In this document: positions 1 through 18,229 of the stretch, piece after piece | How positions within the stretch are numbered: position 1 is the first letter of the stretch | Layout of the letters: the number at the start of each line of letters is the position of its first letter | Origin: a virus | Taxonomy: Duplodnaviria; Heunggongvirae; Uroviricota; Caudoviricetes | Length of the DNA: 20,849 nt | IMG/VR virus record: IMGVR_UViG_2778261244_000002 | Location: 1 to 20,849 of that record | Direction: 5' to 3' (one strand) | The notes under the pieces: model-generated | The model's database searches: none | Told to the model about the DNA's origin: nothing | The model's input: the letters and a program-made list of their open reading frames with translations, nothing else | Translations under genes and position numbers: made by a program

Positions 1-1053
1 TTACGGGGTAATGCCAACCGCTGCCGCCACTTTGTCGCCACTTGGCAGCGTTGCCAGAGGATTGAAACGGAGCGCCGTTTCCAGATGATCCGGTGCCAGA
101 TGTGCGTAACGCATAGTCATTTTTATATCGTGGTGTCCGAGAATTTTTTGTAAGGCCAGAATGTTTCCACCCGACATCATGAAGTGCGCCGCAAACGTAT
201 GGCGCAGAACGTGTGTGAGTTGACCGCGAGGGAGCACGATAGACGTTTTTTCCATCACGGATAAAAATTGAAAATAGCAGTCTGTGAAGAAATTGAACCC
301 ATCAAGCGCCATGATCTCTTCGTAAAGCTCTTTACTGATAGGGATGCTTCTGTTTTTCTTCCCCTTCGTTCTTACAAAGGTAATTCGGTATTTGGTCACC
401 TGTGAACGAGTAAGATTTACGGCTTCTCGCCAGCGTGCGCCTGTGCTTAAGCATATCTTAACTACCAGTGCCAGAATTGGGTCCTGACGTTTGCAATCAG
501 CCAGTAATTCAACAATCTGCTCATGGGTAAGCCATGCCATCTCTTTTTCTGCGATGGTGAATTTTCGCATGTTCTCCAGTGGGTTCGGATACGACCATTC
601 GCCCAGGCGGGATAGTTCGCTAAAAACACTACTTAGATAGCTTTGCTCCAGGTTGATGGTGACCGGGCTTGCTCCTTTCTTCCATTTCTCGCTGAAGTAG
701 ATCTCACCTGTCAGGCGTTTATCTCGATAGTGGGCAAACATTTTAGAGGTTAGATCAGTTGCAAGGGGATTGCCCAGAGCGTCAACCATCAGCAGCAATT
801 TGTCATAGACATGCTGCCCAGCTGTCAGTGATTTACCATGTAGTTTGAACCATAGCTCAACCACGTCTTTCAGGGTTCGACGATCCACTGATTCGCCCAG
901 CCAGGGCTTTGATTCGGTTTCTTCCATCGTGTGACGCTCAAAAGCCAGAGCTTCGCCTTTGGTGGCGAATTGTTTACGCACACGACGCCCACTTCGTCCG
1001 GCGGGGTAACATTCGCAAAGCCATTTCCCTGTGGTGAGTTTTCGTACTGCCAT
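1..1053 (-). CDS. int: Phage integrase, tyrosine recombinase (P2 Int-like)
   Basis: Translation carries the C-terminal tyrosine-recombinase motifs (HVLRHTFAAHFMMSGGNILALQKILGHHDIKMTMRYAHL) and overall resembles P2 Int. Start chosen at the internal ATG 1051-1053 (MAVRKLTTGKW...), preceded by a GGAGGG RBS; the track ORF reaching 1209 is judged an upstream over-extension. Stop at 1-3. Confidence 0.9.
   Translation of the reverse strand: MAVRKLTTGKWLCECYPAGRSGRRVRKQFATKGEALAFERHTMEETESKPWLGESVDRRTLKDVVELWFKLHGKSLTAGQHVYDKLLLMVDALGNPLATDLTSKMFAHYRDKRLTGEIYFSEKWKKGASPVTINLEQSYLSSVFSELSRLGEWSYPNPLENMRKFTIAEKEMAWLTHEQIVELLADCKRQDPILALVVKICLSTGARWREAVNLTRSQVTKYRITFVRTKGKKNRSIPISKELYEEIMALDGFNFFTDCYFQFLSVMEKTSIVLPRGQLTHVLRHTFAAHFMMSGGNILALQKILGHHDIKMTMRYAHLAPDHLETALRFNPLATLPSGDKVAAAVGITP
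20..41 (+). repeat. Candidate att core (attL copy) inside the 3' end of int
   Basis: Partner of the 17995-18016 repeat; lies within the last codons of int. Confidence 0.5.
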
Positions 1054-1084
1054 AAAAAATGCCCTCCAGTAGAGAGCATTTTTA

Positions 1085-1100
1085 CTGTATATATAACCAG
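1085..1100. promoter_or_regulatory. Candidate LexA box upstream of int
   Basis: CTGTATATATAACCAG (CTGT-N8-CCAG, AT-rich spacer) 32-47 nt upstream of the int ATG; one mismatch to the CTGT-N8-ACAG consensus. Confidence 0.35.
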
Positions 1101-1241
1101 TGTCAATGTATGAAATCCTACGACCATACATCTCACTGAAGCCATAATGAAGTTGGCTATTCTTTTTGCTATGTGAGCATGTAACTTTTGCGGTTAACCT
1201 GCGGCTCATTTTTATTTTAGACGCAGATATAAAAGCAAAAG

Positions 1242-1433
1242 TTATCGTGAGTTTTTAGTACAGATTTTTTTGGATTTACTAATAGTTCCATCATTGCAAA
1301 CGAATTTGCCATCTGAGGTACAGTGAGAAACACCTCCCTTTTTCCCTGAGCAGGGATAATTTCTAGCATAGGTAGTTAGTGGGTTTAATAACAAAGAACA
1401 TGACAAAACCACAAAAAATACCTTACCAAGCAT
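1242..1433 (-). CDS. Small secreted cysteine-rich, lysine-rich protein (63 aa), moron between cI and int
   Basis: Strong RBS (GGGAGGAAACTATG on the minus strand). N-terminal hydrophobic signal-peptide-like segment ([23 protein letters not shown]) followed by a 40-aa Lys-rich region with 4 Cys. Same orientation as cI and int with a 15-nt gap to the cI stop. Region looks AT-rich by eye. Confidence 0.6.
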
Positions 1434-1448: not shown

Positions 1449-2105
1449 CTATTTAACATACTTGACTGTTAAACTTATAATTTTACCAATTATTTCAATG
1501 TCTTCTATCTTGCATTCGAAGGCTCTGTTTCCACCCTCGACGAAGATTCTTCCACCGGGTAAACGAGTAATGTCACGGATCGTTATTTCGCCATCAATAC
1601 TTATTACCCATTTACCATCACGTATATCATCAAATTCTTTATCACAAATAAATTCAGAATTGTTATCTGTGATGACAAAAGGTTTTTTAAACGTAGAGGG
1701 TAGAAATCCCTTATCAAAAATATAAAAACCGTCTTTCTGCAATGCTCCATCAGACAATAAATATTTTTCTACTTCTATAGTATTTGTATTTGCTGATGCT
1801 TGCTTTGAACCATGCCCTGTTGTTAGCCAATTAAGCGAGGTGCCCGTTTCAAGGGCGCACTGGATTACCCAATCTGCTGGAAAAATATCACGCATATAGC
1901 GCGTTGCCATGGTGCTCTTAGAAACACCTAAATGATCACAGAGAGCCTGACGGGTACCGAACCCATATGCTTCAACTAAACGTTCTATGGCTTTCTTACC
2001 GCCGCTATTGAAATCCACAAGTCCTCCAAAGAAATCCAAAATTCGTTGACAGATTCCAAAAGCGATCTTAAAGTTGAGCCAGAAGTGTTCTTTTGGAGCC
2101 TTCAC
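1449..2105 (-). CDS. cI: 186-type CI immunity repressor (HTH N-terminal domain)
   Basis: N-terminal segment (ERLVEAYGFGTRQALCDHLGVSKSTMATRYMRD...CALETGTSLNWLTTGHG) resembles 186 CI. Divergent from the apl/cII operon and upstream of int. The first in-frame start is GTG at 2103-2105; the true start is uncertain (internal GTG or TTG possible). Confidence 0.8.
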   Translation of the reverse strand: MKAPKEHFWLNFKIAFGICQRILDFFGGLVDFNSGGKKAIERLVEAYGFGTRQALCDHLGVSKSTMATRYMRDIFPADWVIQCALETGTSLNWLTTGHGSKQASANTNTIEVEKYLLSDGALQKDGFYIFDKGFLPSTFKKPFVITDNNSEFICDKEFDDIRDGKWVISIDGEITIRDITRLPGGRIFVEGGNRAFECKIEDIEIIGKIISLTVKYVK

Positions 2106-2367: not shown

Positions 2368-2431
2368 TAGATGTCTATTTTCGCAATAAGACGCTGAGTT
2401 CGATTTTGCGATAAGTTCGGAGTTGAAAACC

Positions 2432-2941
2432 ATGTTTGATTACCAAGTTTCCAAACATCCACATTTTGATGAAGCCTGTCGTGCATTCGCACTGCGCCAC
2501 AATCTGGTGCAACTGGCAGAACGTGCTGGCATGAATGTGCAGATTCTGCGGAACAAGCTGAACCCATCTCAACCTCATTTATTAACCGCACCAGAAATCT
2601 GGCTGCTTACCGATCTGACAGAAGATTCAACGCTGGTAGATGGTTTTCTGGCACAGATTCACTGCCTGCCATGTGTACCGATTAATGAGGTTGCAAAAGA
2701 GAAACTGCCGCATTACGTCATGAGCGCAACTGCAGAGATTGGACGTGTTGCAGCAGGTGCGGTATCTGGTGATGTAAAAACTAGTGCCGGTCGTCGTGAT
2801 GCTATCAGCAGCATTAACTCTGTAACACGACTGATGGCGCTGGCTGCTGTTTCATTGCAGGCCCGTTTACAGGCTAATCCTGCGATGGCGAGTGCAGTTG
2901 ATACCGTGACTGGCCTCGGTGCTTCATTCGGTTTGCTGTGA
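2432..2941 (+). CDS. cII: 186 CII-like lysogeny-establishment transcriptional activator
   Basis: Translation from [24 protein letters not shown]... is recalled as near-identical to 186 CII and gives the same 169-aa length; the ATG at 2432 is preferred over the track start at 2423. Confidence 0.85.
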
Positions 2942-4281: not shown

Positions 4282-5135
4282 GCACCATCCTGAAATGGGC
4301 GGGTAATAAAACTGCCATTATGTCCGAACTGAAAAAACATCTTCCTGCTGGCCCGCGACTGGTTGAACCTTTCGCGGGTTCCTGTGCTGTGATGATGGAG
4401 ACGGATTACCCCAGCTATCTTGTTGCGGATATTAATCCTGATTTAATCAACCTCTATAAAAAGGTTGCTGCTGATTGCGAGGCGTTTATATCTCGTGCCA
4501 GAGCTTTATTTGAGGAAGCAAACAGGGAGGTGGCTTATTACAACATAAGGCAGGAGTTTAATTACTCCACTGAAATTACTGATTTCATGAAAGCGGTATA
4601 TTTCCTGTATCTCAATCGTCATGGTTACCGTGGGTTATGTCGTTATAACAAGAGCGGGCATTTCAACATTCCATACGGTAATTATAAAAATCCGTATTTC
4701 CCTGAAAAAGAAATTCGCGCATTTGCAGAGAAAGCCCAGCGAGCAACGTTTATCTGCGCCAGCTTTGATGAAACGCTGGCGATGCTGCAGGTGGGGGATG
4801 TGGTGTATTGCGATCCGCCTTATGACGGTACGTTTTCCGGCTATCACACTGACGGCTTCACTGAAGATGACCAGTATCACCTGGCATCTGTTCTTGAATA
4901 TCGATCATCAGAAGGTCATCCAGTCATTGTTTCTAACAGTGACACATCCCTGATCCGTTCGCTGTATCGAAATTTCACTCACCACTACATCAAGGCAAAA
5001 CGCAGCATCGGCGTGTCGGCTGGCGAGAGTAAATCTGCAACAGAAATCATTGCTGTTTCCGGGGCGCGCTGCTGGGTGGGATTTGATCCTTCGTGTGGCG
5101 TAGATAGTTCTGCTGTGTACGAGGTGCGTGTATGA
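4278..5135 (+). CDS. dam: DNA adenine (N6) methyltransferase, Dam family
   Basis: N-terminal ILKWAGNK...EPFAGSCAV (AdoMet-binding motif) and catalytic DPPY ([12 protein letters not shown]); ATG at 4278 overlaps the upstream stop and its own stop overlaps the A start (ATGA). Confidence 0.85.
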
Positions 5136-7546
5136 GTCATGACGATATGAGCAACTCTAGCGGCTTTAACGAGGCCGCTGCAGCATTTTCATGGAACGGC
5201 CCGAAAAAGGCCATTAACCCTTATCTGGACCCGGCGGAAGTTGCTCCGGAGTCTGCACTTTTAAACCTGATCACTCTGTACGCTGCCGATAATGAGCAGG
5301 AACAGCTGCGCCGCGATGCACTGAGTGAGCAGGTCTGGGAGCGTTATTTCTTTAATGAATCTCGTGATCCTGTCCAGCGCGAAATGGAGCAGGATAAGCT
5401 CATTAGCCGGGCAAAGCTAGCGCATGAACAGCAGCGTTTTAACCCGGACATGGTCATTCTGGCGGACGTCAGCGCCCAGCCCACCCATATTAGCAAGCCG
5501 CTGATGCAACGTATCGAATACTTCAGCAGCCTGGGCAGGCCAAAGGCTTATTCCCGCTATTTGCGTGAGACGATTAAGCCATGTCTGGAGCGACTGGATT
5601 GTGTACGTGACAGTCAGCTGTCTGCTTCTTTCCGTTTTATGGCAAGCCATCAAGGGCTGGAGGGCCTGCTGATTCTGCCTGAAATGAGTCAGGATCAGGT
5701 GAAACGCCTGTCCACCCTGGTAGCTGCGCATATGAGCATGTGCCTTGATGCAGCTTGTGGCGATTTGTATGCCACCGATGACGTTAAGCCAGAAGAAATC
5801 CGCAAGACATGGGAAAAGGTGGCGGCGGAAACCCTGCGTCTGGATGTCATCCCACCTGCGTTTGAGCAACTCCGTCGGAAAAGAAACCGCCGTAAACCCG
5901 TGCCCTATGAACTCATTCCGGGTTCGCTGGCGCGTATGTTGTGCGCCGACTGGTGGTATCGGAAATTATGGAAGATGCGTTGCGAATGGCGGGAAGAGCA
6001 GTTGCGTGCTGTCTGCCTGGTCAGCAAAAAAGCATCTCCCTATGTCAGCTATGAAGCCGTGATGCATAAACGTGAGCAGCGCCGTAAGTCGCTGGAGTTT
6101 TTCCGTTCTCATGAACTGGTGAACGAAGACGGCGACACGCTGGACATGGAGGATGTGGTAAACGCCAGCAGCAGCAACCCTGCGCATCGCCGCAATGAGA
6201 TGATGGCCTGTGTTAAAGGTCTGGAGCTTATCGCGGAAATGCGCGGTGACTGCGCCGTTTTCTACACTATCACCTGTCCGTCACGTTTCCATTCCACGCT
6301 CAACAACGGCAGACCCAACCCGACCTGGACAAATGCGACGGTAAGACAAAGCAGCGATTATATGGTCGGCATGTTTGCTGCATTTCGTAAGGCAATGCAC
6401 AAAACCGGGTTGCGCTGGTATGGCGTGCGGGTGGCTGAGCCGCACCATGACGGTACTGTGCACTGGCATCTCATGTGCTTCATGCGTAAAAAAGACCGCC
6501 GCGCCATCACTGCATTACTGCGTAAGTTTGCCATCCGTGTAGACCGCGAGGAGCTGGGCAACAACACGGGGCCACGCTTTAAGTCTGAGCTGATTAACCC
6601 GCGCAAAGGAACACCGACAAGCTACATCGCGAAATACATCAGTAAGAACATTGACGGGCGTGGTCTGGCTGGCGAGATCAGCAAGGAAACGGGTAAATCC
6701 CTGCGTGATAACGCCGAATACGTTAATGCCTGGGCGTCTCTGCATCGTGTTCAGCAGTTCCGCTTCTTTGGTATTCCGGGACGTCAGGCTTACCGTGAAC
6801 TTCGCTTGCTGGCTGGTCAGGCGGCAAGGCAACAGGGTGACAAAAAAGCAGGTGCGCCGATACTGGATGACCCGCGCCTTGATGCCATCCTGGCTGCTGC
6901 TGATGCTGGTTGTTTTGCCACCTACATCATGAAGCAGGGCGGCGTACTGGTTCCCCGTAAATATCACCTTATCAGAACCGCTTATGAAATCAACGAAGAG
7001 CCGACCGCCTATGGCGATCACGGCATTCGTATTTATGGCATCTGGTCACCCATTGCAGAGGGCAAGATCTGCACTCATGCAGTGAAGTGGAAAATGGTTC
7101 GTAAGGCCGTTGACGTTCAGGAGGCGGTAGCCGACCAGGGCGCTTGCGCCCCTTGGACTCGTGGCAATAACTGTCCCCTTGCTGAAAATTTGAACCAACA
7201 AGGGAAAGACAAATCAGCTGATGGGGACTCCAGAACGGATATTACCCGTATGAATGACAAGGAGTTGCATGATTACCTGCACAGTATGAGCAAAAAAGAG
7301 CGCCGGGAACTGGCTGCAAGGTTACGCCAGGTGAAACCGAAACGGCGTAAAGACTACAAACAGCGAATTACAGACCATCAGCGACAGCAGCTCGTCTATG
7401 AACTGAAGTCCAGGGGATTTGATGGCAGCGAGAAAGAAGTCGATTTGCTCCTTCGCGGCGGCAGTATTCCGTCAGGAGCAGGCCTGCGTATCTTCTATCG
7501 GAACCAGCGTCTGAAGGAAGATGATAAGTGGCGGAACCTATATTAA
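5132..7546 (+). CDS. A: Rolling-circle replication initiation endonuclease (P2 gpA-like)
   Basis: 804-aa protein with an HUH-type motif ([13 protein letters not shown]) and a tyrosine-containing YIAKYISK segment; lies between the early genes and the accessory region as in P2/186. Confidence 0.9.
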
Positions 7547-7613
7547 TTACGCGGGTTAACAATTCGTGCTCTTAATAATACCAGGCATATCAGGCCGATG
7601 AACGTAAAAAAAC

Positions 7614-7660
7614 GTTTTACATCAGTAAGATTATTATATACTGTAAATATAAACAGTGGT
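7614..7660 (+). promoter_or_regulatory. SOS promoter with LexA box (CTGT-N8-ACAG at 7641-7656)
   Basis: TTTACA (-35-like) then TATACT overlapping CTGTAAATATAAACAG, a perfect CTGT-N8-ACAG LexA box about 45 nt upstream of the 7699 ATG. Confidence 0.7.
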
Positions 7661-7698
7661 TATGTGTACAGTATTGTTTTGGTGTCATAGGAGGAAAG

Positions 7699-7887
7699 AT
7701 GCAGGACTATTTTTTGGAGTCTTTGAAGCTCCAGCGCATTGATTTTTTTCTTAAGCTTGTAGCGGCTAGTGAGTGTAGTGATGAAGAGAAGGGGCTGGCT
7801 CTGCAGTGGGTTTCTGAATTGACTGATGAACTCATGGCAAAAATCAGAAGCCACGAATACAACCGCTCAATGGATGTCATCAGCTGA
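7699..7887 (+). CDS. Tum-like (antirepressor N-terminal part?) small protein, LexA-regulated
   Basis: Strong AGGAGG RBS; immediately downstream of the LexA box and 10 nt upstream of the DinI-like gene. Functional call is positional analogy to the 186 tum operon. Confidence 0.55.
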   Translation: MQDYFLESLKLQRIDFFLKLVAASECSDEEKGLALQWVSELTDELMAKIRSHEYNRSMDVIS

Positions 7888-7897
7888 GGTGACTTTT

Positions 7898-8131
7898 ATG
7901 CGCATTGAAATAATGATCGATAAAGAGCAGAAGATTAGCCAGTCTACCCTGGACGCCCTTGAATCCGAGCTTTACCGCAATCTGCGCCCCCTGTATCCCA
8001 AAACGGTAATTCGCATTCGCAAAGGTAGCTCTAACGGTGTGGAACTAACCGGACTGCAACTGGATGAAGAAAGAAAACAAGTGATGAAAATTATGCAGAA
8101 GGTGTGGGAGGACGACAGCTGGCTGCATTAA
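7898..8131 (+). CDS. dinI: DinI-family protein
   Basis: MRIEIMIDKEQKISQSTLDALESELYRNL...MKIMQKVWEDDSW aligns by eye with E. coli DinI (MRIEVTIAK...ALAGELSRR...ILQETWESADDW); GAGGTG RBS. Confidence 0.8.
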   Translation: MRIEIMIDKEQKISQSTLDALESELYRNLRPLYPKTVIRIRKGSSNGVELTGLQLDEERKQVMKIMQKVWEDDSWLH

Positions 8132-8137
8132 GATGTT

Positions 8138-8175
8138 GCCCCCAGGAGGATTCATTCTGATGGGGGCTAGTTTGG
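8138..8175 (+). terminator. Putative hairpin terminator after the dinI-like gene
   Basis: Inverted repeat GCCCCCA...TGGGGGC followed by TAGTTTG; weak T-tract. Confidence 0.35.
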
Positions 8176-8321: not shown

Positions 8322-8657
8322 TTACGAATGATCATTCTGTTTAGTCTTCATGAGAAAATCCCGAATCTTTGCCAAGTTTGAATTTTCGGGGATTGAATCC
8401 ATGTACGGATCACGCTCAAACACTAATTGCTCAGATTCAACGAAAGCCTGCCACTCTACTGGGTCTAGCTCAAATCCCATTGCTGTCATATCACTTTCAT
8501 CTTCCCCCTCGATCCAGTGGACTAAATAAAACAATTCATCATCAGGAGAATCATCCTCACCATCAACAATATCAACATCGGTTACAGTGATACGTAGGGT
8601 GGGATCGATTTTTGAGACATAAATTCCTAACTGTGGTATAGGGGGAATATTGTTCAT
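8322..8657 (-). CDS. Highly acidic hypothetical protein (111 aa)
   Basis: AAAGGAG RBS before the ATG at 8657; strongly acidic composition (GEDDSPDDE, EGEDESD); no recognised domain; oriented toward the dinI-like gene. Confidence 0.6.
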   Translation of the reverse strand: MNNIPPIPQLGIYVSKIDPTLRITVTDVDIVDGEDDSPDDELFYLVHWIEGEDESDMTAMGFELDPVEWQAFVESEQLVFERDPYMDSIPENSNLAKIRDFLMKTKQNDHS

Positions 8658-9136: not shown

Positions 9137-10534
9137 ATGAAGATGTATGAAGTAATTGATATATCAGCGCAGGAAATTAAGGCGTTGTTAAACACTGCTG
9201 AAGATCATTTCAATGATTTTAAAAGTAAGCAAATAGCGCCTAATAAATTACAAGAAACTTTTGTAGCATTTGCAAATGCTGATGGCGGTAATATTTATAT
9301 TGGCATAGAGGATGCAGCTTCGGGGAGAGAGCGTATATCTGGTTTCAATGAGCCAGAGGAAGCGAATGCTATTATTTCGACCTTATTGGAAAATACTAAT
9401 CCAGCTGTTGAGAATGTTGAGGTGGAATATTTAAGAACACCTTCCAATGGATTGATTTTACATGTGGATATACCAAAAAGCCCCAAAGTTCATTACACGG
9501 CCTCTGGCGATTGCTTTATAAGAGCTAACGCGCAAAAATTAAAAATAAAAGGTGAGCGAATTACTCAGCTTTCCTATTCTAAAGGCGCAGAACCTTATGA
9601 AAAAAAAGCAGTGGATATAGTTGAAGTAGAAGATATTCTTGAAAGTGAATATTATTCTGATTATTTACGTAGAATAGGAACGACTCAGTCACCGAGAGTT
9701 TTTTTAAAAAAACAACGACTGTTAACTAAGAAAGATGGTGAATTTGTCCCGAATGTAGGCTGTGTTTTACTATTTGATGAAGAGCCTCAAGGATGTTTAG
9801 ATACTCGATGTGCTGTAAAAGTATATCGGCTTAGAACAACTGAAGCAGAGTACAAACGTGAACAATTACAGGAAGATCCTGTAACGATTGAGGGGCCACT
9901 TGAAGTGGTTATTTTAAATACAATAGCAAAAGTAAAAGAATATGTTGATGGAGCATCATTCAAAGACGGCGAAAATCTAGTAAAACTTAGCTATCCTGCA
10001 GAAGCATTGAAGGAAATATTAGTTAATGCTGTTATTCATAGAGATTACAGCCAAAAGGATGATGTGCACGTAAAAGTTTATGACAACCGGATTGAAGTTC
10101 AAAGTCCAGGCAGATTGCCTGGATACATGACTATTAATAATTTATATGAAGAGCGGTTTTCTCGTAATCCAAATTTAGTGCGTTTGTTGCATAAACTTCC
10201 CAATCCAGTGAACCATGATATTGGTGAGGGGCTTGATACTGCAAAAAATGAATTGCGTAAGGCCGGGTTGGTAGCCCCGGTATTTGAAGAAAGGGGCAAT
10301 AATTTTGTTGTAATAGTTAAGCATCAAACAATAGCCTCAATTGAGGATGTGATTATTAATTATTTTAAAGAAAATCCAACGGGACAGCTCACAAATAAGT
10401 TGGTTAGACAATTAAGTGGCGAAGATGACCTTCAAAAGGTTAAAAAGGCATTGCAAAAGTTAAGGGAGGAGGGCGTAATAAAACCATTAGATCCTAACGC
10501 GAATCCTTTCAAATTTAAATATATTAAAGCTTAA
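9137..10534 (+). CDS. Schlafen-like AlbA_2 domain + HATPase_c_4-like domain + C-terminal wHTH protein (COG2865-type); candidate anti-phage cargo
   Basis: N-terminal EDHFNDFKS...ETFVAFANADGGNIYIGIED matches the AlbA_2/Schlafen-like signature; central LKEILVNAVIHRDYSQKDDVHVKVYDNRIEVQSPGRLPG matches HATPase_c_4; C-terminus looks like a winged HTH. AT-rich relative to flanks; followed by a hairpin terminator. The start may be the second ATG at 9143, which has better RBS spacing. Confidence 0.75.
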   Translation: MKMYEVIDISAQEIKALLNTAEDHFNDFKSKQIAPNKLQETFVAFANADGGNIYIGIEDAASGRERISGFNEPEEANAIISTLLENTNPAVENVEVEYLRTPSNGLILHVDIPKSPKVHYTASGDCFIRANAQKLKIKGERITQLSYSKGAEPYEKKAVDIVEVEDILESEYYSDYLRRIGTTQSPRVFLKKQRLLTKKDGEFVPNVGCVLLFDEEPQGCLDTRCAVKVYRLRTTEAEYKREQLQEDPVTIEGPLEVVILNTIAKVKEYVDGASFKDGENLVKLSYPAEALKEILVNAVIHRDYSQKDDVHVKVYDNRIEVQSPGRLPGYMTINNLYEERFSRNPNLVRLLHKLPNPVNHDIGEGLDTAKNELRKAGLVAPVFEERGNNFVVIVKHQTIASIEDVIINYFKENPTGQLTNKLVRQLSGEDDLQKVKKALQKLREEGVIKPLDPNANPFKFKYIKA

Positions 10535-11614: not shown

Positions 11615-12285
11615 AAAATCTCCACAATATTACTGGTATTGGCGGACTCGCCCTGCAGTGGTTCGTTAAACAGTGCGTGCATTGTTGCCCAGGCCAGATC
11701 GGCGTGGCTGGCTTCTTCGCTGCGGCTGGCTTCATAGGTCGGGCGGTTGCCGCTGGCGGTGGTGGCGCGACGGATTGCCATGAATGACTGCGCAATGTCG
11801 GTGTGCCCGGCGTCAAACTCCAGACGGCGGTGGCTGATAATGTCGTAGGCCTTGAGCACCAGGGCGTTTTTAACGTTGGGGTTGTAGACAAACTCCCGGA
11901 CGGCAGGAAAGAATGCTTTCACGTTCTCGTAAACCCCGTGACCAACGCCGGTTGAGTCGATACCGATATAAGTCACGTTGTACTGTTCGGTCAGTTTTTT
12001 GATGGCGTCAGCCTGAGCGCGGAAGTCCATCCCGCGCCACTGGTGACGCTCAAGAATGCGGAATTTACCGCCCGGTACGGCTGGCGGTGCCACCACCACG
12101 CATCCGGCACTGTCGCCGTTCTGAGTACCTTTTGCGGGGTCATAACCGATCCATACTTCGCGCCAGCCAAACGGGCGCAGGGCCAGTGCATGGAAGTCGG
12201 TCCAGATTTCCCAGCTGTCCACCATGCACGCCTGCAGTTCGCTGAGCGGGAACACGGACGCGAGATCGTCCACGAACTCGCACAT
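11611..12285 (-). pseudogene. P: Terminase large subunit (gpP-like), C-terminal nuclease-domain fragment only
   Basis: Only about 224-263 aa of an expected ~590-aa terminase remain (open frame reaches at most 12402); the sequence contains the RNaseH-like nuclease region (GYDPAKG...GIDSTGVGHGV) and lacks the N-terminal ATPase. Confidence 0.7.
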
Positions 12286-12545
12286 CAGCAGGTTCTGGTA
12301 TCCAGCGTGACGATACCGGGGAAGTGCAGGCCGTGGAGCTTGTCGTGCGTGGACGTCACAAAGAAGTGGATTCCGGCGAGTGGAAGACGGGCGAAAGCAA
12401 CACTACCAAAGTGACCAGTACCAACAGCTACGCGAAGCTGACCATCAATGGTGAGGTGCTCTATGAAGTGGACCTTATCAACATGGTGGAAATTGTGGAC
12501 GGTGTGGACCTGATGGAAGCGCACCGCAACGCCCTCGGCCTCTGA
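12246..12545 (+). pseudogene. Probable tail-tube (FII-like) C-terminal fragment
   Basis: Open frame without a credible start, ending 55 nt upstream of gene E; called on position (FII precedes E in P2) and tail-protein-like sequence (KLTINGEVLYEVDLINMVEIVDGVDL). Confidence 0.3.
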
Positions 12546-12599
12546 TGTATCTGAACGGCGCGGGATACCGCGCCAGAACCCAATTGACAGGACAGCAAA

Positions 12600-12902
12600 A
12601 TGAGCGATAAGCAGACTGAAAAGACTATTCAACTGGATACCCCCATCAAGCGCGGTAAAACAGAAATCACCGAAATTGTGCTGCGTAAACCGCAGTCCGG
12701 TGCGCTGCGCGGTACACGCCTGCAGGCCATTATGGATATGGATGTAAACGCGATGATGACCGTGATCCCCCGCATCTCCAGTCCGGCACTGACCGCACAG
12801 GAAATTGCAGAGATGGACCCGGCAGATCTCACTGCCATGTCGGTTGAGGTTGTCACTTTTTTGTTGAAGAAGTCGGTGCTTGCCGGTTTACCGACAGCCT
12901 GA
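12600..12902 (+). CDS. E: Tail assembly chaperone gpE
   Basis: 100-aa ORF directly upstream of the tape measure gene with the slippery heptamer TTTTTTG at 12857-12863 near its end. Confidence 0.8.
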   Translation: MSDKQTEKTIQLDTPIKRGKTEITEIVLRKPQSGALRGTRLQAIMDMDVNAMMTVIPRISSPALTAQEIAEMDPADLTAMSVEVVTFLLKKSVLAGLPTA

Positions 12903-13036
12903 CGGTTGACGATCTGGTGGCAGATATCGCCACCATTTTTCACTGGCCGCCATCCGTTACTGACGTTATGCCGCTGACCGAAGTGCTGGAATGGCGGTAT
13001 AAAGCGATTCAGAGAAGCGGGGCCAACGATGAGTGA
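12600..13036 (+). CDS. E': gpE+E' -1 frameshift fusion product
   Basis: After a -1 slip at T_TTT_TTG (12857-12863) the -1 frame stays open to a TGA at 13034-13036, adding about 58 aa (...VEEVGACRFTDSLTVDDLVADIATIFHWPPSVTDVMPLTEVLEWRYKAIQRSGANDE) and overlapping the T start. Confidence 0.65.
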
Positions 13037-18016: not shown

Positions 18017-18074
18017 TCGTAAAAAAACAGTGTTTCTAACATCATGATTTTAAACAGCTTAAATTTCAGGCAAC

Positions 18075-18117
18075 AAAAAACCCATCAACCTTGAACCGAA
18101 ATGGCGGGGTTGATGGG
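18075..18117 (-). terminator. Rho-independent terminator (minus strand), downstream of ybjL
   Basis: Perfect 10-bp inverted repeat CCCATCAACC / GGTTGATGGG with a 16-17-nt loop, followed on the minus strand by TTTTTT. Confidence 0.6.
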
Positions 18118-18229
18118 CTCCACAAAATGGGGACATCAAAGAAAAGCAGTGGCACTAATTAAGACTGATGCCCTGCGGAAAAGTTCTGCGGTTGTGCAAA
18201 AAAATTTCATTTTCAGGGCAACTTCAGTT

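What the first reader, a model, noticed from the sequence alone, without database searches (positions are those of the whole stretch)
7614..8131. LexA-box-controlled tum-like ORF plus separate DinI-like gene
A perfect CTGT-N8-ACAG box overlaps a plausible -10 just upstream of a 62-aa ORF with a strong RBS, followed 10 nt later by a DinI-family gene. In 186 the SOS-controlled antirepressor Tum is a single protein of about 146 aa whose C-terminal part, as I recall, is DinI-like. Here the module is two ORFs, either a natural two-gene version or a split tum, and it would couple prophage induction to SOS.
Basis: partly seen in the sequence, partly recalled or inferred. Interest (0 to 1): 0.45.

Follow-up and report, generated by a model that had tools for sequence, protein, structure and literature searches.

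The report
SOS-controlled split tum antirepressor operon
This is the two-gene version, already described for Salmonella phage Fels-2 and phage PsP3, of the DNA-damage switch of coliphage 186: a LexA-repressed promoter drives a small antirepressor and a separate DinI-like protein, here in a deleted prophage that can no longer make virions.

Summary
The LexA box (20-mer 7639-7658, core 7641-7656) scores 23.6 bits, above every one of 200 shuffles of the window. A 62-codon ORF (7699-7887) has a strong ribosome-binding site. A 77-codon DinI-family gene (7898-8131) follows after 10 nt.

The region is 97% identical to Fels-2 STM2728/STM2726.1. Pairwise BLASTP finds no similarity between the ORF and 186 Tum. 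Profile comparison (hhalign 96%, E 3.5e-9) and an intermediate sequence show it is a homologue of the Tum N-terminal half.

It is a real gene (dN/dS 0.07) and a natural two-gene arrangement, not a broken tum. All 32 related loci carry the short ORF with a LexA box upstream, 20 carry dinI 8-12 nt downstream, and none is fused.

The literature already states that Fels-2 and PsP3 have a split tum, so this is already known.

- A second, overlapping LexA box, giving a colicin-type double operator.
- A 186-type CI without a self-cleavage domain.
- No covariation between the antirepressor and CI.
- A second strong LexA box inside an int promoter.
- A ~10.5 kb deletion of the structural and lysis genes.

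The parts
7616..7621 (+). probable -35 hexamer TTTACA of the SOS promoter (equivalent of 186 p95)
   Evidence: Read from the sequence. The TTTACA-15 nt-TATACT / 17 nt-TACTGT geometry recurs in related loci. 186 p95 is annotated as TTCACA-18-TACTGT. The strict consensus scan did not detect it.
7639..7658 (.). LexA box 1, TACTGTAAATATAAACAGTG; overlaps the -10 (TATACT 7637-7642 / TACTGT 7639-7644)
   Evidence: 23.6 bits, above the maximum of 200 shuffles. A box at the equivalent place occurs in 32 of 32 related loci and in Fels-2, 186 and PsP3.
7654..7673 (.). LexA box 2, CAGTGGTTATGTGTACAGTA; overlaps box 1 with a 15-nt offset (colicin-type double operator)
   Evidence: 12.5 bits, the third best site in the window. 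A box at +15 scores 11-20 bits in about two thirds of related loci. The segment 7634-7680 is 87-90% identical to the double SOS box upstream of colicin R and pesticin genes.
7689..7694 (+). Shine-Dalgarno AGGAGG of the tumA-like gene
   Evidence: Read from the sequence. The (A/C)AGGAGG(G/A)AA motif before the start codon is conserved in most of the related loci.
7699..7887 (+). tumA-like gene, 62 aa: homologue of the N-terminal (antirepressor) half of 186 Tum and of PsP3 TumA; 97% identical to Fels-2 STM2728
   Evidence: hhalign 96%, E 3.5e-9, residues 3-43. BLASTP chain through P0267. PHROG profile cross-hits. dN/dS 0.07 against 1.2 and 2.1 in the off-frame controls. AlphaFold2 predicts a two-helix hairpin, pLDDT 86.9.
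7886..7892 (+). Shine-Dalgarno GAGGTGA of the dinI-like gene, overlapping the tumA stop codon
   Evidence: Read from the sequence. A purine-rich SD-like stretch (GGGG/AGG) and an 8-12 nt gap are found in the 20 related loci that have dinI.
7898..8131 (+). dinI-like gene (tumB equivalent), 77 aa
   Evidence: Pfam DinI E 6.6e-23. 100% identical to Fels-2 STM2726.1, 78% to PsP3 TumB and 41% to the C-terminal half of 186 Tum. Matches solved DinI 1GHH at E 2.7e-6. Below the NCBIfam DinI equivalog cut-off, 42.7 against 111 bits.
8138..8167 (+). hairpin GCCCCCA...TGGGGGC after the dinI stop; possible weak terminator; similarity to Fels-2 and its relatives ends here
   Evidence: Folding is not better than shuffles, z = -1.15. 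Similarity to relatives stops at about 8133. Weak evidence only.
1449..2018 (-). 186-type CI repressor, the presumed target of the antirepressor (the open frame extends to 2105; the start at 2018 follows the RefSeq annotation of a homologue)
   Evidence: Pfam Phage_CI_repr 3.2e-31 plus Phage_CI_C 4.7e-29, with no Peptidase_S24 hit. 33% identical to 186 CI and 38% to Fels-2 CI. Homologue annotated as 'phage repressor protein CI'.
5132..7546 (+). replication endonuclease gene A, immediately upstream, as in 186, PsP3 and Fels-2

Best explanation
The region is the SOS operon of a Fels-2-type P2/186-like prophage, in its two-gene form. In undamaged cells LexA would occupy a double operator: box 1 lies over the -10 and box 2 lies just downstream. 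This would keep the promoter off. After DNA damage, RecA-stimulated LexA self-cleavage would free the promoter, and one transcript would yield two small proteins. The first is a 62-aa two-helix protein homologous to the N-terminal half of 186 Tum. It would bind the prophage's 186-type CI repressor, which has no self-cleavage domain, and stop it binding its operators, so the lytic promoter is derepressed. The second is a stand-alone DinI-like protein equivalent to the C-terminal half of Tum. It would modulate the SOS signal, probably through RecA filaments as host DinI does. Shown here: the sequence features, the homologies, purifying selection on the ORF, conservation of the operator, and the type of CI. 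Taken from the literature on orthologues: DNA-damage induction of the Fels-2 operon, antirepressor activity of 186 Tum and of the PsP3 upstream gene. Inferred, not shown: LexA binding to this DNA, binding of this protein to this CI, and the role of the DinI-like protein. Because capsid, lysis and most tail genes are deleted, the outcome here can only be derepression, replication and perhaps excision, not phage release.
For: Identity with a described module: 7541-8130 is 97% identical to Fels-2, and the two ORFs are 97% and 100% identical to STM2728 and STM2726.1. The PsP3 record annotates tumA ('similar to 5' end 186 tum; UV induction of prophage') and tumB ('similar to dinI and 3' end of 186 tum'). 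[quoted passage not shown]

Homology: hhalign of the ORF62 family against the Tum-N/TumA family gives 96%, E 3.5e-9. ORF62 matches P0267 at 2e-19, and P0267 matches 186 Tum residues 5-43 at 7e-11. PHROG profiles cross-hit.

Real gene: dN/dS is 0.07.

Operator: 23.6 bits, and a box is present in 32 of 32 loci. The double box closely resembles those of colicin promoters, where two overlapping boxes bind two LexA dimers (PMC2994835).

Induction: the STM2726-2728 operon responds to the mutagen MX, and STM2727 is induced 5.5- to 14.8-fold among LexA-regulon genes (PMC2225428).

Target: the CI is of the 186 type and has no S24 domain.

Synteny: the module lies directly after gene A, as in 186 and PsP3.
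Against: There is no direct pairwise similarity to 186 Tum or PsP3 TumA: BLASTP finds nothing and MAFFT gives 20-22% identity. No experiment on the Fels-2-type protein itself was found; the PsP3 result is a personal communication cited in PMC3121763. The resident CI is only 38% identical to Fels-2 CI although the antirepressor is 97% identical. Across 27 loci the antirepressor does not covary with either CI domain (Mantel rho 0.01 and -0.06). So either it recognises an invariant surface or the pairing is loose. Box 2 is weak in this window (12.5 bits).
Confidence: 0.85

Rival explanations
1. The two ORFs are a decayed tum: a once-fused 186-type gene broken by a nonsense or frameshift mutation, so that the 62-aa ORF is a remnant.
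For: 186 encodes a single 146-aa Tum. This prophage is decaying elsewhere, with a 10.5 kb deletion. In PsP3 the two halves are in frame and separated by one stop codon.
Against: The short ORF is conserved as a 56-78 codon gene in all 32 loci from many genera, with dN/dS 0.07. The dinI-like gene has its own Shine-Dalgarno sequence and start codon 8-12 nt downstream and here lies in a different reading frame. 12 of 32 loci have the short gene and no dinI at all. Even among close relatives of the 186 Tum N-half, most listed proteins are stand-alone, 63-79 aa.
Confidence: 0.03
2. The operon is SOS-controlled, but the 62-aa protein does not act on the resident CI. It could be mismatched after an immunity swap, or it could act on another target such as RecA or LexA, or on the repressor of a different prophage in trans.
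For: The resident CI is only 38% identical to Fels-2 CI while the 62-aa protein is 97% identical. There is no covariation with the CI N-terminal or C-terminal domain across 27 loci, and one locus (L026) pairs it with a 186-like CI. Trans-acting antirepressors between prophages are documented in Salmonella (PMC3121763).
Against: In 27 of the 33 loci examined (the window and 26 of the 32 related loci) the gene sits with a 186-family CI in a P2-like early region. Its homologue 186 Tum binds CI and blocks DNA binding (PMC3121763, citing Shearwin 1998). The CI N-terminal domain stays 62-83% identical across most loci, so a shared binding surface is possible. The CI has no self-cleavage domain, so another induction route would be needed.
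Confidence: 0.1
3. The LexA-like box is a chance match in AT-rich intergenic DNA, and the operon is constitutive or controlled otherwise.
For: The bare pattern CTGT-N8-ACAG is expected 0.28 times in the window, and 24 of 100 shuffles have at least one match. The consensus promoter scan found no promoter here.
Against: The 20-mer score exceeds all 200 shuffles. A box of 15.5-28.6 bits lies upstream of the gene in 32 of 32 loci although the flanking sequence differs. 186 p95 has the same layout and is annotated as SOS-dependent. The Fels-2 operon is induced by a mutagen.
Confidence: 0.02

Closest known systems
Fels-2 STM2728 / STM2726.1 (STM2727 in LT2 numbering), the split tum of Salmonella prophage Fels-2
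   Same: Essentially the same DNA: 97% identity over 7541-8130. The proteins are 97% and 100% identical. The LexA boxes and the position after gene A are the same.
   Different: The resident CI is of another immunity type, 38% identical. Different cargo genes follow dinI. This prophage has a LexA box at int that Fels-2 lacks, and it is deleted.
PsP3 tumA / tumB
   Same: A two-gene layout directly after gene A, under a LexA box. The upstream gene is a small Tum-N homologue and the downstream gene a DinI homologue (78% identical to the one here).
   Different: PsP3 TumA is only 22% identical to the ORF here and is detectable only through profiles. The PsP3 genes are in frame and separated by one stop codon, whereas here there is a 10-nt gap and a frame change. 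PsP3 has a single LexA box.
Coliphage 186 Tum (p95 SOS operon)
   Same: A LexA-repressed promoter with the box over the -10, located after gene A. The N-terminal half is homologous to the ORF here and the C-terminal half is DinI-like. The target is a CI of the same family. 186 also makes a separate DinI-like product from an internal GTG start.
   Different: 186 has one fused 146-aa protein, a single LexA box, and orf97 downstream in the same operon. The orf97 homologue of Fels-2 (STM2726) is absent here.
Gifsy-1/Gifsy-2 dinI-gfoA / dinI-gftA operons
   Same: A LexA-controlled operon combining a DinI homologue with a small antirepressor that binds the phage repressor (PMC3121763).
   Different: The gene order is reversed, with dinI first. 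The phages are lambdoid and have a different repressor family. Homology between those antirepressors and this ORF was not tested.
Colicin / pesticin double SOS box
   Same: Two overlapping LexA boxes 15 nt apart. The segment 7634-7680 is 87-90% identical to the operators upstream of colicin R (pColR) and pesticin (pPCP1). The double box is reported to bind two LexA dimers and to prevent untimely expression (PMC2994835).
   Different: It drives a prophage antirepressor rather than a bacteriocin. In the colicin promoters the boxes appear to lie downstream of the -10 (my reading of the alignment), whereas here box 1 overlaps it. Common descent and convergence cannot be distinguished.

Membership tests
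186 Tum-type LexA-controlled antirepressor (TumA, N-terminal half of Tum) | Sequence homology to the N-terminal, non-DinI half of 186 Tum | tested here: met
   Pairwise BLASTP is negative. hhalign gives 96%, E 3.5e-9 over residues 3-43. An intermediate, P0267, links the two at 2e-19 and 7e-11. PHROG profiles cross-hit.
186 Tum-type LexA-controlled antirepressor (TumA, N-terminal half of Tum) | Promoter overlapped by a LexA operator | tested here: met
   23.6-bit box over the -10, above all shuffles, with a box present in 32 of 32 loci. Physical LexA binding was not testable.
186 Tum-type LexA-controlled antirepressor (TumA, N-terminal half of Tum) | Position at the right end of the early region, directly after replication gene A of a P2/186-like phage | tested here: met
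   Gene A is at 5132-7546, the module at 7699-8131, then cargo genes and portal gene Q.
186 Tum-type LexA-controlled antirepressor (TumA, N-terminal half of Tum) | Cognate repressor is a 186-type CI that lacks a RecA-stimulated self-cleavage domain | tested here: met
   Phage_CI_repr plus Phage_CI_C, with no S24 peptidase hit. 33% identical to 186 CI.
186 Tum-type LexA-controlled antirepressor (TumA, N-terminal half of Tum) | Binds CI and prevents operator binding; required for UV induction | not testable with these tools
   Known for 186 Tum, and reported by personal communication for the PsP3 upstream gene (PMC3121763). The absence of covariation with CI leaves the specificity open.
186 Tum-type LexA-controlled antirepressor (TumA, N-terminal half of Tum) | Single fused polypeptide of about 146 aa, as in 186 itself | tested here: not met
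   Two ORFs with a stop codon, a 10-nt gap and a frame change. None of the 32 loci is fused. It is therefore a member of the split (PsP3/Fels-2) form, not the 186 form.
DinI family | Match to Pfam PF06183 above the gathering score | tested here: met
   81.3 bits against a cut-off of 24.2, E 6.6e-23, covering profile positions 1-63 of 63. Matches solved DinI 1GHH at E 2.7e-6.
DinI family | Orthologue of host DinI (NCBIfam equivalog NF007893) | tested here: not met
   42.7 bits against a cut-off of 111. It is a phage DinI-like paralogue, not the chromosomal dinI.
DinI family | Binds RecA filaments and modulates their coprotease activity | not testable with these tools
   Inferred from family membership only. 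The conserved C-terminal VWEDDSW motif is shared with PsP3 TumB, and closely (VWEDESW) with the 186 Tum C-terminus.
Colicin-type double SOS operator | Two 20-bp LexA boxes overlapping with a 15-nt offset | tested here: met
   Boxes at 7639-7658 and 7654-7673. The same geometry is found in about two thirds of related loci and in the colicin R and pesticin promoters.
Colicin-type double SOS operator | Occupancy by two LexA dimers, giving tight repression | not testable with these tools
   Reported for colicin operators (PMC2994835). Box 2 is weak in this window (12.5 bits).

The most novel reading that the evidence does not exclude
The Fels-2-type 62-aa antirepressor may be a generalist that inactivates many immunity classes of 186-type CI. 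It stays 80-98% identical while the CI C-terminal domain drops to 23-41% identity, and it does not covary with either domain. A generalist could give SOS-triggered cross-induction among P2-like prophages. In this lineage SOS control may also extend to excision, through a second LexA-gated promoter that would start transcription inside the terminator hairpin preceding int.
Probability: 0.3. Interest if true: 0.45.

Novelty: already known. Interest (0 to 1): 0.15.

Why it matters
The result mainly settles an annotation. The 62-aa gene is called 'hypothetical protein' by RefSeq, has no Pfam or NCBIfam family, and sits in a PHROG of unknown function. Yet it can be named a Tum-type (TumA) SOS antirepressor, and it is common in enterobacterial P2-like prophages. 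Knowing this helps predict which P2-like prophages are inducible by DNA damage or by antibiotics that trigger SOS. The side observations could be tested cheaply and would refine the picture of how non-lambdoid prophages read the SOS signal. They are the double operator, the lack of covariation with CI, and the LexA-gated int promoter.

Tried and rejected
- Pairwise BLASTP of the ORF against 186 Tum and PsP3 TumA gave nothing. This would have wrongly refuted the homology, so profile methods were needed.
- Pfam, NCBIfam and PADLOC have no family for the ORF, and a profile search of the PDB found nothing.
- A Foldseek search of the AlphaFold2 model against viral structures gave no match at E <= 0.001. 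A two-helix hairpin is too generic.
- The hairpin 7876-7893, flagged as terminator-like between the two genes, is confined to the window and its closest relative (L007) among the 32 loci, so it was rejected as a conserved attenuator.
- The hairpin after dinI does not fold better than shuffles.
- The covariation test between the antirepressor and CI domains was negative.
- The search for related loci with the 30-sequence alignment failed for lack of a conserved stretch. A 9-sequence alignment worked.
- Bunny et al. 2002 (PMC151935), the primary source for the Fels-2 split tum, is not held in the library. It is cited only through PMC3121763.
- A literature search for 'TumA/TumB' returned only unrelated papers. 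A search for LexA-controlled prophage integrase promoters returned nothing.
- Rfam found no known RNA in the region.

Full report
**Context.** The window is the early half and remnants of the late region of a P2/186-like (Peduoviridae, Fels-2-type) prophage. Its parts are:
- integrase, 1-1053 (-);
- a small YdcA-family secreted protein;
- a 186-type CI, 1449-2018 (-);
- an Apl/Cox-like ORF read by eye at about 2165-2368 (+, not scanned against any family library) and CII, 2423-2941 (+);
- DUF5347, a Dam methylase, and replication endonuclease A, 5132-7546;
- the region in question;
- two cargo genes;
- portal gene Q, a truncated terminase gene P, then the tail genes E, T, U and D and ogr;
- the host genes rybB and ybjL.

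Comparison with an intact relative at the same chromosomal site (E. coli SHP24) shows that window position ~12300 joins the middle of P to the tail-tube gene. About 10.5 kb of capsid, lysis, baseplate, fibre and sheath genes are missing.

**Observation.** CTGTAAATATAAACAG lies at 7641-7656. As a bare 8-base pattern it is not remarkable: 0.28 matches are expected, and 24 of 100 shuffles have at least one. The full 20-mer TACTGTAAATATAAACAGTG (7639-7658) is different. That score is above the median of those operators and above the best score in any of 200 shuffles of the window.

The box overlaps TATACT/TACTGT. The 186 record annotates TACTGT as the -10 of the SOS-dependent promoter p95, with a LexA site beginning at the same base. 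The ORF (7699-7887, 62 aa) has AGGAGG 4 nt before its ATG. The DinI-like gene starts at 7898, 10 nt after the TGA, with GAGGTGA as its ribosome-binding site, and ends at 8131. It matches Pfam DinI at E 6.6e-23.

**What it is.** The segment 7541-8130 is 96-98% identical to many Peduoviridae. These include Fels-2, where the two ORFs are STM2728 ('hypothetical protein') and STM2726.1 ('DinI family protein ... similar to TumB [PsP3]'). The proteins are 97% and 100% identical to the Fels-2 ones.

The PsP3 record annotates a 60-aa tumA ('similar to 5' end 186 tum; UV induction of prophage') followed by tumB ('similar to dinI and 3' end of 186 tum'). 186 has one 146-aa tum whose residues 87-145 match Pfam DinI. 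Lemire et al. [quoted passage not shown] 2002 and a personal communication. The arrangement is therefore already in the literature.

**Homology of the 62-aa ORF.** Taken literally it nearly succeeds:
- BLASTP finds nothing against 186 Tum or PsP3 TumA.
- A MAFFT alignment shows 20-22% identity.
- Pfam and NCBIfam have no family for the ORF.

Deeper methods show that the relationship is real:
- PHROG profiles cross-hit. The ORF matches phrog_698 (6e-38), phrog_8554 (1e-8) and phrog_1993 (0.002). 186 Tum matches phrog_1993 (1e-22), phrog_8554 (1e-11) and phrog_698 (2.4e-5).
- An exhaustive HMMER search gave relatives down to 36% identity. One of them, P0267, matches the ORF at 2e-19 and 186 Tum residues 5-43 at 7e-11.
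- A profile-profile comparison of a 30-sequence ORF family with an 18-sequence Tum-N/TumA family gives 96% probability, E 3.5e-9, aligning residues 3-43 of both.

The shared core is a helix, a turn holding a conserved Cys, and a second helix beginning with (D/E)(K/R)xhAL. AlphaFold2 predicts a two-helix hairpin (helices 2-23 and 28-61, pLDDT 86.9). This fold is too generic for a fold search to be informative.

**A natural two-gene form, not a broken gene.** I fetched 32 loci from different species of Enterobacterales that encode relatives of the ORF at 65-98% identity. All 32 have a short ORF of 56-78 codons. Twenty have a dinI-like gene 8-12 nt downstream, and 12 have none anywhere in the 20 kb fetched. 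None is fused.

Pairwise dN/dS over the ORF has a median of 0.07, against 1.2 and 2.1 when the same DNA is read in the other two frames. Even among close relatives (68-97% identical) of the 186 Tum N-half, most of the 120 listed proteins are stand-alone, 63-79 aa. Several are named 'Tum protein' by NCBI. The 186 record itself lists a separate DinI-like product from an internal GTG start that 'modulates SOS induction'. So the fused and split forms yield much the same parts.

**Operator.** All 32 loci have a LexA box of 15.5-28.6 bits upstream of the gene, 40-97 nt before the start codon, although the flanking sequence varies. It overlaps the first box with a 15-nt offset. On its own it is marginal. 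However, a box at exactly +15 scores 11-20 bits in about two thirds of the loci (typically CAGTGGATATATATACAGTT, 19 bits) and 15.4 bits in Fels-2. The more distant Pantoea, Erwinia and Tatumella loci, 186 and PsP3 have a single box.

This geometry is that of colicin promoters. A blastn search with 7630-7685 hit 834 plasmid records. The segment 7634-7680 is 87-90% identical to the sequence just upstream of the colicin R gene of pColR and the pesticin gene of pPCP1. [quoted passage not shown] I infer the same logic here: tight repression, so that the prophage commits only under a strong or lasting SOS signal. I cannot tell whether the similarity reflects descent or convergence. The overlap itself constrains the sequence.

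**In vivo support from the orthologue.** In Salmonella TA100 (Fels-2+) the operon STM2726-STM2727-STM2728 responded to the mutagen MX. STM2727 was listed among LexA-regulon genes, with 5.5- to 14.8-fold induction (PMC2225428).

**Target.** The CI at 1449-2018 has the two 186-CI Pfam domains and no S24 self-cleavage domain. An antirepressor route is therefore the expected mode of induction. The CI is only 33% identical to 186 CI and 38% to Fels-2 CI, with most of the similarity in the N-terminal DNA-binding domain. Yet the antirepressor is 97% identical to that of Fels-2.

Across the 27 loci where a CI was found, antirepressor identity does not covary with the identity of either CI domain (Mantel rho 0.01 and -0.06). 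CI N-terminal domains remain 62-83% identical to the window's and C-terminal domains 23-41%. One locus pairs the Fels-2-type antirepressor with a 186-like CI. The antirepressor may contact an invariant surface, most simply in the N-terminal domain, and so be a generalist. Alternatively the modules may be shuffled without strict matching. This is the main open point in the mechanism, and it is the basis of the second rival explanation.

**Verdict.** Its only practical novelty is that databases still leave the 62-aa gene unnamed. Because the prophage is deleted, SOS here cannot lead to phage production or phage-encoded lysis.

**Side findings.** The strongest LexA-like site in the window is not the one reported. 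It is TACTGTATATATAACCAGTG at 1083-1102 (24.5 bits). On the minus strand it fills the 17-nt spacer of a TTGACA-N17-AAAAAT promoter (10 of 12 consensus positions) about 30 nt upstream of the int start codon.

Between this promoter and the ATG lies a strong hairpin with a U-run (dG -14.5 kcal/mol, z -5.2). The hairpin contains the int Shine-Dalgarno sequence. The predicted transcription start falls at the end of its 5' arm, so transcripts from this promoter would lack the hairpin. The same layout recurs in five related loci. Two of them have a different stem sequence but the same structure. It is absent from Fels-2 and 186. This suggests SOS-dependent int expression, but it is inference only.

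Noticed in passing
window 1055-1106 (- strand), upstream of int (1-1053): The best LexA-like site in the window (1083-1102, 24.5 bits) fills the spacer of a TTGACA-17-AAAAAT promoter about 30 nt before the int ATG. A strong terminator-like hairpin (1083-1055, dG -14.5 kcal/mol, z -5.2) that contains the int Shine-Dalgarno sequence lies between them, and the predicted transcription start falls inside it. Read-through from cI would then stop or hide the SD, while the SOS promoter would bypass the hairpin. The layout is conserved in L007, L013, L038, L039 and L042 (L013 and L038 have a different stem sequence) and is absent from Fels-2 and 186.
   Followed up: partly
window 7634-7680: The double LexA operator of the tumA-like gene is 87-90% identical to the double SOS box upstream of colicin R (pColR) and pesticin (Yersinia pestis pPCP1). 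834 plasmid records match. Descent and convergence were not resolved.
   Followed up: partly
window ~12299-12301: Deletion junction. The middle of terminase gene P is joined to the tail-tube gene, so about 10.5 kb (capsid, lysis, baseplate, tail fibre and sheath genes) is missing relative to the intact relative in E. coli SHP24. The prophage is defective. The ORFs listed at 12285-12943 (-) lie opposite the remaining tail-tube and tail-assembly coding sequence, so they are probably not genes (not tested).
   Followed up: yes
window 1449-2018 (-) and loci L007-L038: The CI repressor is of a different immunity type from Fels-2 CI (38% identity) although the antirepressor is 97% identical. Across 27 loci the antirepressor does not covary with either CI domain. 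L026 pairs it with a 186-like CI.
   Followed up: partly
window 8322-8657 (-) and 9137-10534 (+): Variable cargo lies between dinI and portal gene Q, at a position where related prophages carry other genes (P-loop NTPase, PIN, DUF6236, Hypoth_Ymh). Here it is a 111-aa ORF with no family and a 465-aa Schlafen AlbA_2 plus HATPase_c_4 protein. The latter partly matches PADLOC pAgo-associated models. It is possibly a defence gene.
   Followed up: partly
window 1242-1433 (-): A small ORF with a signal peptide (63 aa; YdcA family, NCBIfam PRK10040, E 5e-34) is inserted between cI and int. Fels-2 and 186 have no gene there.
   Followed up: partly
window 18072-18150 (-): The RybB sRNA gene (Rfam 105 bits) lies just outside the ogr end of the prophage, with its 3' end facing the prophage. 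This suggests rybB is the integration site. The other attachment site lies outside the window.
   Followed up: no
proteins P0001, P0003 and others: Many database entries for this gene are 84-106 aa because gene callers extended the start upstream through the promoter and LexA boxes. In the window the frame is closed and the ORF can be no longer than 62 aa.
   Followed up: partly
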